Shown here piece by piece: positions 9,001-12,000 of a stretch of 64,000 nucleotides of DNA. Every line of letters begins with the position of its first letter. The first letter of the stretch is position 1. The stretch is taken from assembly GCF_058153355.1 (NCBI RefSeq), contig NZ_CM177019.1. The stretch is one strand, 5' to 3'. The position numbers are program-made.

Positions 9001-12000
9001 CGGCACCTCCGCAGGCAGTGCCGGCTACTGGTTTTTACAGTGGCTTGATCAGGTCAGTCCATCACAGTGGGCTGCGATTGGTGTGCTGGGAAGTCTGGCG
9101 CTGGGCTTTCTGACTTATCTGACGAATCTGTATTTCAAAATAAGAGAAGATAAGCGTAAGGCTGCGAGAGGTGAATAATGTCGCCATCATTACGCAAGGC
9201 TGTTGCAGTTGCTATTGGTGGCGGGGCTGTTGCTATAGCATCTGTGTTAATCACTGGCCCAGGTGGTAACGATGGTCTGGAAGGTGTCAGCTACATACCA
9301 TACAAAGATATCATTGGTGTATGGACTGTATGTCACGGACACACCGGAAAAGACATCATGCCTGGTAAAACGTATACCGAAGCAGAATGCAAAGCTCTCC
9401 TGAATAAAGACCTTGCCACTGTCGCCAGACAAATTAACCCGTACATCAAAGTCGATATACCGGAAACAACGCGCGGCGCTCTTTACTCGTTCGTTTACAA
9501 CGTGGGCGCTGGCAATTTCAGAACATCGACGCTTCTTCGCAAAATAAACCAGGGCGATATCAAAGGCGCATGTGACCAGCTACGTCGCTGGACATATGCT
9601 GGCGGTAAGCAATGGAAAGGGCTGATGACCCGTCGTGAGATTGAGCGTGAAGTCTGTTTGTGGGGGCAGCAATGAGCAGAGTCACCGCGATTATCTCCGC
9701 TCTGGTTATCTGCATCATCGTCTGCCTGTCATGGGCTGTTAATCATTACCGTGATAACGCCATTACCTACAAAGAGCAGCGCGACAAAAACGCAAGAGAA
9801 CTGAAGCTGGCGAACGCAACCATTACTGACATGCAGCAGCGCCAGCGTGCTGCTGATGCACTCGATGCTAAATACACGAAGGAGTTAGCTGATGCGAAAG
9901 CTGAAAATGATGCTCTTCGGCGCAAGCTTGATAATGGTGGTCGGGTGCTCGTCAAAGGAAAATGCCCTGTGCCATCCTCAGCCGAAACCTCCAGCGCCTC
10001 CGGCATGGGCAATGATGCCACCGTCGAACTCTCTCCAGTTGCTGGACGAAACGTTCTCGGTATCCGGGACGGAATCATCAGCGACCAGACAGCATTGAGA
10101 ATGCTTCAGGAGTACATCAGGACTCAGTGCCTGAAATAAATTTTTTTTGCAAATCACAAAGTCCATTTAATGAGCCTCGCACTTGCGGGGCTTTTATATG
10201 TCCGCAGTAAACCGCGCATCGCAGCGCGTATAAACCCCGAGTCTTTCAGAAAGCTGAGCCTGAGAATTGCCGTATATGGTGGCGACCATCTCGGGGACGG
10301 CTTTTCTGTGCGAACAGGCTCATCTTTCTAAAAGGTAAAGACGCCATGAACAAATCATTAACCGTTCTTCCTTCTGGCAAATACCCGACCATGAGCAGTC
10401 TTGAGATGGTGGATTACATTAATGCTGATCGGGAATCAAAAGCAGAGGCGGAGGGGCTTGTGTTCCCCTGTAAGAAATATCGCAAACTCGAACACCGCAG
10501 TTTCATGAAGAAAGTACCCAGGGGCCTCGGGGATGCAGCTGCAAAATTTTTTGCAACTGATACCTATATCAACGGAACAGGTGGTGTTGTGGAGAGGGAT
10601 ATTTGCAATTTTCCCAAGCGTGAAGCTTGCCTCATGGCAATGAGCTACAGCTATGAGCTTCAGGCGCAGGTGTATGACCACATGACGGAGCTTGAGGGCG
10701 GGAAGGACATTAACCTCCTCGATTTCTCTGGCCTGACCGATATGGCAATCAGCGAAATGCAAAACCGTGTCGCGGCTGCTGAGAAGTTCTCATTTGAAAT
10801 GCACGGTCAAGCAGGTAGCGCTCTCATGACTCGTCGGAAGAAAGAGAAGAAGGCCATTAAAAAGGCTGAGCAGCTTGTGAAGGATCTGATTCAGTTCAAG
10901 CTATGTGACATGGGGGATTTCCCTGATGGTAAACCAGCATGACTCCGATTGATTTCATACATAAAAATGTAACAACCGAGTTAATAAAGCTTGGGTACGA
11001 CCAGAACGCGGCTATGACTGGCGCTGACATGGCGGTGGAGCATTACCGCCGTTGTTCACAAGCCAGCAGAAAAGGCCGAGTTTTCGATGACTGCCTGTAC
11101 ATTGCAAAACAGTGGGCAGGTAGGCAGAAAAGGGAAAAAATGACAACCTGAGAGCTACTTTCACAACGGCTCTTCATTACAAAGCCCATCTACTGGTGGG
11201 CTTGATAATGGCTTATACCCTACACGGGATAACTTAACTGATATCCCTTTTAACGGATAAACGGAGCACAAATAATGGCAAAGCTCACCGACAAACAAGA
11301 GCTGTTTGCCCGTGAGTACCTGAAAGATCTGAACGGCACACAGGCAGCTATCAGGGCGGGCTACAGCGAGAAGACCGCCAATGAGCAGGCATCTCGATTA
11401 TTAGCAAATGTTAATGTTCAAAAATTCGTTGCTGAACTTAAATCCGCCCGCGTTGAGCAGATGGGTATAGATGCCGCCTATGTTCTTCGTAGATTGGTTG
11501 AAATCGACCAGATGGATGTGCTCGACATTCTCCTGCAAAACGGTGAGCTAAAGCCCATTAAAGACTGGCCTAAGGTATGGCGCACAACGCTATCAGGAAT
11601 GGATGTCGTGGAGATGGTATCCGCAGATAGCGCCGCACTTCTGAAGAAAATTAAATGGCCTGATAAGGTTAAAAACCTTGAGTTGCTTGGGCGCCATGTT
11701 TCTGTTCAGGCGTTTAAAGACAACGTCAAAAATGAAGTGACTGGCGCTGATGGAGGACCAGTCAGAACAGAAATTACCAAATTAACGCCTGAGCAGGCCG
11801 CAGAGGTGTATAGAAAAATGATGGGCTAAGTATGCCGTTACCATTCCCCTTCGATTTTAAACATCCTGATTACCAGATGGTTTTTGAATGGCGGATGGAA
11901 CGCCTACAGCGCATTCGCCAGAATCCTGAAATATTGCCTGCACTAAAACAGTTTTACCGTACCAACCCGGCTCAGTTCATTATCGACTGGGGCATGACAA

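What the first reader, a model, noticed from the sequence alone, without database searches (positions are those of the whole stretch)
10346..11151. Two unassigned late-operon genes between the lysis cassette and terminase
This slot commonly holds lysogenic-conversion or exclusion morons (for example bor or rha types). The 198-aa product has only a weak Rha-like pattern and the 70-aa product has no recognisable motif.
Basis: inference. Interest (0 to 1): 0.3.

Follow-up and report, generated by a model that had tools for sequence, protein, structure and literature searches.

The report
Rha-like gene pair behind RNA gate
The two genes are real: a distant Rha-type DNA-binding protein and its small helper, an optional cassette in a swap-prone slot of lambda-like phages, whose translation appears to be held back by a conserved, previously uncatalogued RNA hairpin found in many E. 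coli prophages.

Summary
Both ORFs exist as stated (10346-10942, 198 aa; 10939-11151, 70 aa; ATGA overlap). Both are under purifying selection, and they are adjacent in 57 of 83 related loci across Enterobacterales.

The 198-aa protein is a divergent "Bro-network" protein. It has a Rha-like N-domain, supported only by PHROG hits and by transitive homology because it has no Pfam hit of its own. It also has a family-specific helical C-domain. It sits in the same post-Rz slot as P22 rha.

The 70-aa protein is a confident three-helix bundle (PHROG 4439, function unknown) and occurs in this slot only next to this Rha clade.

The slot is hypervariable. Elsewhere it holds Rha+ORF11CD3, KilA-N, T5orf172, HNH_3+AP2 or Tad2-like genes, next to several terminase types. 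A packaging role is therefore unlikely.

No promoter was found. Terminator-like hairpins flank the cassette. The proteins are soluble and match no defence model. Lysogenic conversion or exclusion is therefore not supported.

Unexpected: a ~105-nt hairpin (10239-10345) pairs with the Shine-Dalgarno sequence. It shows strong covariation, is absent from Rfam, and matches by BLAST in 916 of 5,426 complete E. coli genomes. It precedes most of the alternative slot genes.

Best reading: a late-transcribed, translationally throttled DNA-binding accessory pair whose target is unknown.

The parts
10172..10193 (+). Intrinsic-terminator-like hairpin just after Rz (GAGCCTCGC-ACTT-GCGGGGCTT followed by TTATAT). 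It forms the left boundary of the variable slot.
   Evidence: 9 pairs, 6 G-C. The equivalent site is annotated as a rho-independent terminator in HK106 and listed as 'terminator' under the epsilon34 match. A terminator stem is kept with compensatory changes in related loci (columns 2-9 with 40-47).
10239..10345 (+). Conserved structured 5' leader RNA. It is one long imperfect hairpin made of helices P1, P2 and P3, a 3'-side internal loop (GUGCGAA) and a variable apical part. The 3' strand of P1 pairs with the Shine-Dalgarno sequence of the 198-aa gene.
   Evidence: Independent MFE folds of 30 diverse copies give the same architecture. Median z is -3.3 and the SD is paired with median probability 0.82. 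On the seed alignment 92.8% of cells are paired, against 38-54% for slid controls, with 11 compensatory pairs and 0/500 shuffles reaching the observed values. Covariance model R1 hits the window's + strand once, at 10239-10348 with 113.6 bits. On the model-fitted alignment 95.6% of cells are paired and 27 of 28 pairs show double changes. There is no Rfam match at E<=1.
10330..10335 (+). Shine-Dalgarno sequence (AAAAGG) of the 198-aa gene, base-paired with TCTTT at 10242-10246 at the foot of the hairpin.
   Evidence: pairs of columns 4-8 with 95-100: all 58 cells with letters are standard pairs, and three of the five pairs have changes on both sides.
10346..10942 (+). Gene 1, 198 aa: a divergent Rha-like / Bro-network protein.
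10385..10699 (+). N-terminal domain (residues ~14-118): a Rha-like putative winged-helix DNA-binding domain (two helices, a beta-hairpin, two helices) with a family-specific insertion around residues 36-49.
   Evidence: AF2 pLDDT is 76-92 in this domain. PHROG 63 aligns residues 6-141 and PHROG 4936 aligns residues 6-118. PF09669 is hit by 21 of 40 relatives. Alignments to the window's own Rha-ANT protein (hhalign E 0.0086) and to P22-type Rha (P 0.017) are colinear but weak. The same domain is 37-51% identical to N-domains of Acinetobacter and Pseudomonas phage 'Ant/Rha' proteins.
10718..10915 (+). C-terminal domain (residues ~125-190): a helical hairpin ending in the conserved motif KAEQLV..LIQFKLCD(L/M)GDFP. 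It may be a divergent ORF11CD3-type module.
   Evidence: AF2 predicts helices 127-153 and 159-188, with residues 185-198 below pLDDT 50. E175 and Q183 are invariant. The same C-domain is fused to a Bro-N domain in L261. The hhalign comparison with ORF11CD3 tails is colinear but weak, P 0.0096. There is no Pfam hit.
10939..11151 (+). Gene 2, 70 aa: a basic (pI 9.3) three-helix-bundle protein with a Lys/Arg-rich tail. It appears translationally coupled to gene 1 through the ATGA overlap.
   Evidence: PHROG 4439, 1.3e-34; pLDDT 85; helices 3-17, 22-39, 48-68.
11175..11210 (+). Strong hairpin directly after gene 2 (core AAAGCCCA-TCTACTGG-TGGGCTT), without a U-run. It forms the right boundary of the cassette.
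   Evidence: inverted repeat I3; the region folds with z -4.59.
11226..11247 (+). Second hairpin (GGGATA...TATCCC) followed by TTTT, just before the terS ribosome-binding site. It lies near the right-hand end of the BLAST matches.
   Evidence: for the fold. Searches show the BLAST matches ending at query positions 1162-1184 (window 11261-11283).

Best explanation
This is an optional two-gene accessory cassette of the 'Bro network' kind, sitting in the recombination-prone junction between the lysis genes and the terminase genes of lambdoid phages.

Gene 1 encodes a soluble protein with two parts. The N-domain is a Rha-like, probably winged-helix, domain inferred to bind DNA. The C-terminal helical hairpin ends in a conserved Q-hydrophobic-x-hydrophobic motif and is inferred to be the partner-binding or effector part. 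Gene 2 encodes a small basic three-helix protein made in step with gene 1 through the overlapping stop and start codons. It is inferred to be gene 1's specific partner or modulator.

The cassette shows no promoter of its own. It is inferred to be transcribed only when Q-modified RNA polymerase reads through the terminator after Rz, that is, late in lytic growth. Even then, translation of gene 1 (and therefore of gene 2) is inferred to be throttled by a conserved ~105-nt leader hairpin that buries the Shine-Dalgarno sequence. This resembles the way phage T4 limits translation of its free-standing homing-endonuclease genes.

The pair is therefore most likely a tightly dosed, potentially harmful DNA-binding regulator or antagonist acting on host DNA or on competing elements. 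It is neither a virion or packaging component nor a prophage-expressed conversion gene.

Shown: the genes are real and linked; the slot is variable; the RNA structure exists and pairs with the SD; the same leader precedes other Bro-network genes.

Inferred: DNA binding, complex formation, late-only expression, translational repression, and the nature of the target.
For: Genes and linkage:
- ORFs and context.
- Purifying selection.
- The two genes are adjacent in 57 of 83 loci, mostly with the overlap.
- The pair sits in the same post-Rz slot in Erwinia phage Midgardsormr38, at 76% and 51% identity.
- In this slot the 70-aa family is found only beside this Rha clade, whereas the KilA-N+ORF11CD3 gene has its own coupled 85-aa partner.

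Rha-like nature:
- PHROG 63 (7e-11) and PHROG 4936 (2.5e-10).
- 21 of 40 relatives hit PF09669; precomputed PF09669 flags and source names agree.
- P22 rha occupies the same slot.
- Domain swapping: a Bro-N domain with the same C-domain, and the same N-domain in phage proteins annotated as anti-repressor Ant or KilAC-domain antirepressors.
- The Bro-network concept is taken from PMC10111431.

Not packaging: the pair occurs next to terS at 60-100% identity, or with no detectable homologue, and next to a lambda-type DNA-packaging protein.

Expression:
- No promoter and a terminator-like hairpin.
- Hairpins after gene 2.
- Leader structure.
- The leader precedes Rha+ORF11CD3, KilA-N, HNH_3+AP2, T5orf172, P22_AR_N and Bro-N genes at a fixed distance.
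- T4 analogy: PMC2988022.

Soluble, not defence.
Against: - The window protein itself has no Pfam or NCBIfam hit.
- Profile-profile matches to bona fide Rha proteins are weak: E 0.0086, P 0.017, and nothing against single-sequence P22 Rha.
- No DNA target was identified.
- Relatives of the 70-aa protein also live alone in early or replication regions of other phages, and 26 of 83 loci lack it. Partnership is therefore not obligatory.
- The promoter scan is a simple sigma-70 consensus and would miss other promoter types.
- The covariation figures come from an alignment fitted to the model.
- No mechanism for opening the hairpin is known.
Confidence: 0.55

Rival explanations
1. Lysogenic-conversion or superinfection-exclusion moron: expressed from the prophage to benefit or protect the lysogen.
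For: The slot is variable and moron-like, with hairpins on both sides. In phage Louie the same slot carries a Tad2-like anti-defence gene.
Against: No sigma-70-like promoter lies between 10194 and 10345. The genes follow a terminator-like hairpin, and the SD is sequestered. Neither protein has a hydrophobic segment, unlike Bor, Lom or Sie-type envelope proteins (the nature of those proteins is my own knowledge). There are no PADLOC hits.
Confidence: 0.08
2. Antirepressor: the 198-aa protein, with or without the 70-aa protein, binds and inactivates a CI-type repressor of this or a co-resident prophage. Late expression would then trans-induce neighbouring prophages.
For: PHROG 63 is labelled 'anti-repressor Ant'. 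RefSeq labels P22 rha 'anti-repressor'. Related N-domains are fused to KilAC/ANT domains in other phages. Trans-acting antirepressors are known from PMC3121763 (listed).
Against: No ANT/KilAC or P22_AR domain is present. The shared part is the putative DNA-binding N-domain, not a known repressor-binding domain. These labels are annotation transfer, not experiments. Late-operon placement is odd for a switch component.
Confidence: 0.12
3. Selfish or decaying mobile cassette: a remnant of a homing-endonuclease-type element that has lost its nuclease and persists by linkage. It would have little function for the phage.
For: The same leader and slot hold genuine nuclease genes (HNH_3+AP2, T5orf172) elsewhere. 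RBS-hiding hairpins are typical of T4 homing endonuclease genes. Mosaic junctions fall near the start codon.
Against: Both genes are under strong purifying selection over deep divergence: dN/dS is 0.03-0.13 for gene 1, and the pair is kept from Escherichia to Erwinia and in named homologues from Xenorhabdus, Providencia and other Enterobacterales. No nuclease motif or domain was detected.
Confidence: 0.12
4. Replication-fork or sliding-clamp-directed pair: the proteins are tethered to the host beta clamp and modulate host or rival replication.
For: In one search, 18 of the 83 family sequences listed were flagged as ending in a hydrophobic pair. Nearly all of these are among the 56 diverse representatives, and most end in a Qxx[LM][LF]-type tail after a basic linker. 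In one search, subfamilies of the 198-aa family end in QLPLNF, QLKLSF, QLSLNL, QMALGL or QIPLDL. The resemblance to clamp-binding peptides (QL[SD]LF / QLxLxL) is my own knowledge. Relatives of the 70-aa protein sit beside replication genes.
Against: The window's 70-aa protein lacks the tail. The window's 198-aa motif is QFKLCDM, a poor fit, and part of it is predicted helical. This is pattern resemblance only, and no binding test was possible.
Confidence: 0.1
5. DNA-packaging accessory acting with the adjacent small terminase.
For: The pair lies immediately upstream of terS. In other phages an HNH packaging accessory sits near this position.
Against: The pair occurs with terS at 60-100% identity, with no detectable homologue, or with a lambda-type Nu1-like protein, and in three loci the recognisable lysis genes lie downstream of it. 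Full-length megablast matches to the region occur in only 16 of 5,426 complete E. coli genomes, while flank matches occur in 2,605.
Confidence: 0.03

Closest known systems
Rha of phages P22 and phi80 (Pfam Phage_pRha PF09669 + ORF11CD3 PF10549)
   Same: It has the same genomic slot directly after Rz/Rz1, a similar size (178-201 aa), and the same two-part plan of an N-terminal putative winged-helix domain plus a ~55-aa helical C-module ending in a Q-hydrophobic motif. It is preceded by the same leader RNA.
   Different: Sequence similarity is at the limit of detection. The window protein passes neither Pfam model and has an insertion in the N-domain. It also carries a dedicated 70-aa partner gene that P22-type rha lacks. 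The rha phenotype (inhibition of phage growth in IHF-deficient hosts; Henthorn and Friedman 1995, my own knowledge, paper not held) was not tested.
'Bro network' of domain-swapping phage and satellite proteins (KilA-N, Bro-N, Rha, AntA, P22_AR_N, ANT, ORF11CD3, T5orf172), as used in PMC10111431
   Same: The architecture is modular and shows swapping: the same C-domain occurs behind a Bro-N domain, and the same N-domain occurs in phage proteins annotated as KilAC/Ant antirepressors. The slot alternates among network members.
   Different: Both domains are outliers that current Pfam models do not capture. Functions in the network are mostly unknown. The worked examples named in the papers read (CapR; Odn) involve the T5orf172 nuclease family, and no nuclease domain is present here.
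RBS-sequestering hairpins of T4 homing-endonuclease genes (I-TevI/II/III, segB, mobE; PMC2988022)
   Same: A stable hairpin pairs with the SD of an optional, potentially harmful gene embedded in a long polycistronic transcript. The same leader precedes true HNH and GIY-YIG-type genes in other lambdoid phages.
   Different: In T4 a late promoter inside the hairpin frees the RBS, and no internal promoter was found here. This hairpin is much longer (28 pairs in three helices), has conserved unpaired nucleotides, and is one homologous family shared by unrelated downstream genes.
Morons of lambdoid phages, for example the P22 'ant moron' (PMC2629481)
   Same: The region is variable, has no role in morphogenesis or lysis, appears inserted when related phages are compared, and is flanked by hairpins.
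   Different: The definition quoted in that paper includes 'usually independently expressed'. No own promoter was detected here.

Membership tests
Rha family (Pfam PF09669 Phage_pRha) | Match to the family HMM at or above the gathering score (29.9 bits) | tested here: not met
   The window protein has no Pfam hit at E<=1 and no NCBIfam hit.
Rha family (Pfam PF09669 Phage_pRha) | Homology to family members shown indirectly through close relatives or profiles | tested here: inconclusive
   21 of 40 relatives (59-88% identical) match PF09669 at E<=0.1, best 4.2e-6. Some carry precomputed PF09669 flags. PHROG 63 and 4936 hit at 7e-11 and 2.5e-10. Direct profile comparisons are weak: E 0.0086 and P 0.017.
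Rha family (Pfam PF09669 Phage_pRha) | Winged helix-turn-helix fold | tested here: inconclusive
   The AF2 N-domain has two helices, a beta-hairpin and two helices, with pLDDT 76-92. Foldseek finds only weak winged-helix proteins (PadR, TFE, DnaD-N) at E 0.4-1.6.
Rha family (Pfam PF09669 Phage_pRha) | rha phenotype: harmful to phage growth in IHF-deficient hosts | not testable with these tools
   This needs genetics. The original paper was not held.
ORF11CD3 domain (Pfam PF10549) | Match to the HMM | tested here: not met
   No hit. The hhalign comparison of the C-domain with ORF11CD3 tails is colinear with the Q residues aligned, but the local P is only 0.0096.
Bro network (domain-swapping phage regulators) | Domains recur in different combinations with other network domains | tested here: met
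   L261 has Bro-N (PF02498) plus the same C-domain. The same N-domain occurs in Acinetobacter phage proteins annotated 'KilAC domain' or 'Ant'.
Moron (as quoted from PMC2629481) | Present or absent, or replaced, when related phages are compared, with no role in morphogenesis or lysis | tested here: met
   Full-length matches to the region occur in 16 of 5,426 E. coli genomes, flank matches in 2,605, and alternative occupants are listed.
Moron (as quoted from PMC2629481) | Usually independently expressed (own promoter) | tested here: not met
   No sigma-70-like site between the Rz terminator and the start codon. This is a consensus scan only.
Envelope-type conversion or exclusion proteins (Bor-like lipoprotein, Sie-like membrane protein) | Signal peptide, lipobox or membrane-spanning segment | tested here: not met
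   The maximum 19-residue Kyte-Doolittle hydropathy is 0.54 and 0.35.
Known anti-phage defence systems (PADLOC-DB 2.0) | Match to a defence protein model | tested here: not met
   No hit at E<=0.1 for either protein.
Packaging accessory proteins | Constant association or co-variation with one terminase type | tested here: not met
   The downstream terS is 60-100% identical or not detectable, and in L002 a lambda-type DNA-packaging protein follows.
T4-type hairpin control of free-standing endonuclease genes | A stable RNA structure sequesters the RBS | tested here: met
T4-type hairpin control of free-standing endonuclease genes | A promoter inside the hairpin gives transcripts with a free RBS | tested here: not met
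   No promoter-like site within 10239-10345.
Ribosome modulation factor (PF04957), for the 70-aa protein | HMM match at the gathering score (27.9 bits) | tested here: not met
   15 bits, E 0.027.
Beta-clamp-binding peptide carriers | Qxx[LM][LF] or QLxLxL peptide in a flexible terminus | tested here: inconclusive
   The tail is present in many distant relatives of the 70-aa protein but absent from the window copy. The 198-aa protein has QFKLCDM, while other subfamilies have QLPLNF, QLKLSF or QMALGL. Binding itself cannot be tested with these tools.

The most novel reading that the evidence does not exclude
The ~105-nt leader is a new, widespread class of cis-regulatory RNA. It would act as a common translational gate placed in front of most 'Bro-network' genes in lambdoid late operons, and would be opened by a specific event such as RNase III cleavage or a trans-acting factor. 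The gated proteins, including this Rha-like/70-aa pair, would act at replication forks through short C-terminal peptides of the sliding-clamp-binding type.
Probability: 0.12. Interest if true: 0.75.

Novelty: new variant of a known kind. Interest (0 to 1): 0.5.

Why it matters
Rha, KilA-N and Bro-type genes are among the commonest phage genes without a known job, and some of them are harmful when expressed.

Many of them, in many E. coli prophages, share one covarying RNA hairpin that hides their ribosome-binding site. This gives a concrete experimental handle on how they are dosed: reporter fusions, compensatory mutants and RNase III mutants. The hairpin is also a candidate new RNA family for Rfam.

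The work also defines a conserved two-gene unit, an outlier Rha-like protein plus a 70-aa partner, that current annotation misses or splits. One RefSeq copy does not call the small gene at all. It further corrects the likely start of the classical P22 rha gene.

The two genes themselves are otherwise an ordinary accessory cassette.

Tried and rejected
- Pfam, NCBIfam and PADLOC on both proteins gave nothing usable. The RMF hit for the 70-aa protein is below threshold.
- PDB sequence profiles gave only chance-level hits. DksA coiled coil scored E 0.48. A synthetic PPR protein scored E 0.0017, summed over repeats that are each insignificant. The related big-database hit P0169 is a TPR protein and P0200 is a DUF4440 protein, so this is generic helical-repeat resemblance and was rejected.
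- The hhalign comparison with single-sequence P22 Rha found nothing.
- RNAalifold on plain MAFFT alignments of all leader types failed because the helices were misaligned. Per-sequence folding and a covariance model replaced it.
- Rfam has no family for the leader.
- The 53-aa ORF at 10170-10331 was rejected as a gene. It overlaps the terminator and the leader, has no Pfam hit, and related leader copies differ by indels that are not multiples of three.
- No direct or inverted repeat that could serve as an operator for the 198-aa protein stood out in the window.
- The original rha paper could not be read.
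Full report
**Observation**

The stop of the first overlaps the start of the second (ATGA).

The surrounding genes form a lambdoid late region:
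- a Q-like antiterminator at 7813-8469;
- tRNA-Asn and tRNA-Thr;
- holin, lysozyme, and Rz with embedded Rz1 (8885-10139);
- the two ORFs;
- terS, terL and portal (11275-14992).

A 99.6%-identical prophage is present in E. coli CFSAN029787. There the 198-aa gene is annotated "hypothetical protein" and the 70-aa gene is not annotated at all.

**Are they genes?**

Yes.
- The 198-aa protein has 1,830 homologues, with named members from many Enterobacterales genera.
- The 70-aa protein belongs to a small family of 56 representatives at 50% identity among 1.84 billion proteins.
- In 83 loci carrying a homologue of the 198-aa gene, 57 have a homologue of the 70-aa gene directly downstream, mostly with the same overlap.
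- The pair occupies the same post-Rz position in Erwinia phage Midgardsormr38, at 76% and 51% identity.
- dN/dS against the window copy is 0.03-0.13 for gene 1. For gene 2 it is 0.24-0.30 among close relatives, with dS saturated and dN low beyond that.
- AlphaFold2 models are reasonably confident, with mean pLDDT 72.5 and 85.1.

**What the 198-aa protein is**

It has no Pfam, NCBIfam or PADLOC hit of its own.

Several indirect lines tie it to Rha:
- PHROGs links residues 6-141 to PHROG 63 ("anti-repressor Ant", 7e-11) and residues 6-118 to PHROG 4936 ("transcriptional regulator", 2.5e-10).
- Half of its close relatives (21 of 40) touch Pfam Phage_pRha, best E 4e-6.
- Many sources name relatives "Rha family transcriptional regulator".
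- Direct profile comparisons with real Rha proteins are colinear but weak: E 0.0086 against the window's own Rha+ANT protein at 6326-7054, and P 0.017 against P22-type Rha.

The N-domain recurs at 37-51% identity in Pseudomonas and Acinetobacter phage proteins annotated as Ant, Rha or KilAC-domain proteins. The C-domain recurs behind a Bro-N domain in locus L261. This is the domain-swapping behaviour described for the "Bro network" (PMC10111431).

P22 rha (Phage_pRha + ORF11CD3) lies in exactly this slot. The C-domain of the window protein aligns colinearly with ORF11CD3 tails, with the invariant Q matched, but only at P 0.0096.

I therefore describe it as a remote, Rha-like Bro-network protein. 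It works like Rha-type proteins in architecture and position, but it is not a threshold-passing member of PF09669 or PF10549.

**What the 70-aa protein is**

It is a basic (pI 9.3), soluble three-helix bundle with a Lys/Arg-rich tail. Its only family match is PHROG 4439, of unknown function. It has no significant fold match. Weak similarities to RMF and to TPR/PPR repeats are generic and were rejected.

In this slot it is found only beside the 198-aa clade. The KilA-N+ORF11CD3 occupant of the same slot has its own overlapping 85-aa partner. "Bro-network protein plus small coupled helical partner" is thus a recurring design.

Relatives of the 70-aa protein also occur alone, near cro/cII-like, O, RdgC, ParB-like or KilA-N genes of other phages.

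**The slot**

Megablast matches covering at least 80% of 10100-11300 occur in 16 of 5,426 complete E. coli genomes. Matches to some part of that region, mostly its flanks, occur in 2,605 genomes.

Other occupants of the slot are:
- Rha+ORF11CD3 (P22, Sf101, C3728);
- KilA-N (ev099, phage 2851);
- GIY-YIG/T5orf172 (HK106);
- HNH_3+AP2;
- P22_AR_N+ORF11CD3;
- a Tad2-like anti-defence protein (Louie).

The pair itself is found next to several terminase types, including a lambda-type one.

**Expression signals and the unexpected RNA**

A terminator-like hairpin follows Rz at 10172-10193. No sigma-70-like promoter lies between it and the start codon. Two hairpins follow gene 2.

The ~200-nt spacer before gene 1 is conserved even where the downstream gene differs. 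Its last ~105 nt (10239-10345) form one long hairpin. The 3' strand of the basal helix pairs with the Shine-Dalgarno sequence at 10330-10335.

Evidence for this structure:
- Thirty diverse copies, each folded on its own, adopt the same P1-P2-P3 architecture. Median z is -3.3 and the median probability that the SD is paired is 0.82.
- On a 12-sequence seed, 92.8% of cells pair, against 38-54% when partners are slid. Eleven pairs carry compensatory changes, and 0 of 500 shuffles reach the observed values.
- A covariance model finds one strong + strand hit per locus, ending at the start codon. L008 is the exception with two such hits. In the 64-kb window the only + strand hit is 10239-10348, at 113.6 bits.
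- On the model-fitted alignment, 95.6% of cells pair and 27 of 28 pairs show double changes. This figure leans towards the model because the alignment was fitted to it.
- Rfam 15 has no match.
- By BLAST, the window's version of the leader matches in 916 of 5,426 complete E. coli genomes, with no annotated feature under any listed full-length match.

Exact-word scans of viral contigs returned 240 more loci. The leader is followed at a fixed distance by at least eight Pfam architectures, nearly all of them Bro-network or homing-endonuclease-type. One locus (L008) has a second copy after Q, before an AP2-like fragment.

The closest known principle is the RBS-sequestering hairpin that limits translation of T4 homing-endonuclease genes (PMC2988022). 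No internal promoter is seen here, and how or whether the hairpin opens is unknown.

**Mechanism proposed**

Shown:
- the gene pair is real and linked;
- the slot is variable;
- the leader is structured and pairs with the SD;
- the leader is shared across unrelated slot genes;
- both proteins are soluble.

Inferred:
- The cassette is transcribed only by Q-modified polymerase reading through the post-Rz terminator.
- The leader keeps translation of gene 1 low, and through coupling that of gene 2 as well.
- The 198-aa protein binds DNA through its Rha-like domain.
- Its C-domain and the 70-aa protein form the effector or partner part.
- The pair acts on host or rival-element DNA transactions rather than on virion production.

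Worked examples from the papers read show relatives of this gene class acting in phage-satellite conflict. [quoted passage not shown] Odn is a chimeric T5orf172 nuclease that cleaves PLE replication origins (PMC8263062).

**Speculative lead**

Many distant relatives of the 70-aa protein end in Qxx[LM][LF]-COOH after a basic linker. Subfamilies of the 198-aa protein end in QLPLNF, QLKLSF or QMALGL. These resemble sliding-clamp-binding peptides, which is my own knowledge. The window's 70-aa protein lacks the tail, and the window's 198-aa motif (QFKLCDM) fits poorly. I rate this reading at about 0.1.

**Verdict**

It is wrong about conversion or exclusion.

The genes are a new variant within a known kind, Bro-network accessory genes. 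The added value is the conserved translational-gate RNA and the definition of the two-gene unit.

Noticed in passing
L084 (phage P22, NC_002371) locus 2041-2147; annotated rha start at locus 2076 (record 39575): The annotated start of P22 rha lies inside the conserved leader hairpin. The leader ends at an ATG at locus 2145 (record 39644), which would give a 178-aa protein of the same length class as the Sf101 and C3728 Rha proteins. With the annotated start, the Pfam Rha domain begins only at residue 48. The deposited start is probably about 70 nt too far upstream.
   Followed up: partly
L008 1898-1999: There is a second copy of the leader RNA (59.3 bits) downstream of the Q gene and upstream of the holin. 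It precedes a 54-aa ORF that looks like the remnant of an AP2/HNH-type gene (no Pfam hit). The leader is therefore not restricted to the post-Rz slot.
   Followed up: partly
L085 (Escherichia phage Louie, PQ850616) 1615-2085: The same post-Rz slot holds a protein with a Tad2-like (Thoeris anti-defence 2, PF11195) domain, deposited as 'anti-CRISPR protein'. This occupant lacks the leader hairpin.
   Followed up: partly
L001 (E. coli CFSAN029787, NZ_CP011416) 6839-7051: The 70-aa gene is intact (100% identical) but is not annotated in RefSeq. The 198-aa gene is called 'hypothetical protein' there and 'Rha family transcriptional regulator' in other strains.
   Followed up: yes
L093 (phage 2851) 1933-2190, and 33 viral loci: The KilA-N+ORF11CD3 occupant of the slot has its own overlapping (ATGA) 85-aa helical partner with a basic tail. 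By eye, part of that partner resembles the N-terminal region of the T5orf172 slot proteins (..LRRNGCVN..).
   Followed up: partly
Proteins P0148-P0196 (relatives of the 70-aa protein); L086 2501-2758; L089 2486-2758: Many longer family members carry a basic linker and an extreme C-terminal Qxx[LM][LF]-type peptide (for example QGSLL, QQGLF, QRGLF, KQTSMF). This resembles beta-clamp-binding motifs. These members sit next to replication genes in temperate phages.
   Followed up: partly
window 6326-7054: A second Bro-network gene lies in the nin region of the same prophage, with a sub-threshold Phage_pRha match (26.9 bits) plus ANT/KilAC (1e-32). The covariance model finds no leader in front of it.
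   Followed up: partly
window 10170-10331: A 53-aa ORF overlaps the post-Rz terminator and the leader hairpin. It has no family hit and is almost certainly not a gene.
   Followed up: yes
window 11175-11283: The BLAST matches end at 11261-11283, just before or at the start codon of the next gene (terS here, a DUF2560 gene in Sf101). This stretch contains two hairpins. Whether it is a second leader-like element was not examined.
   Followed up: no
window 10274-10298 (apical part of the leader) and 10310-10316: Some unpaired nucleotides of the leader are conserved at 90% or more across types: UGAG at the P2/P3 junction, GG on the 3' side of the apical region, and parts of the CUGUG stretch at the 3' internal loop. 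This hints at a bound factor or a tertiary contact.
   Followed up: no
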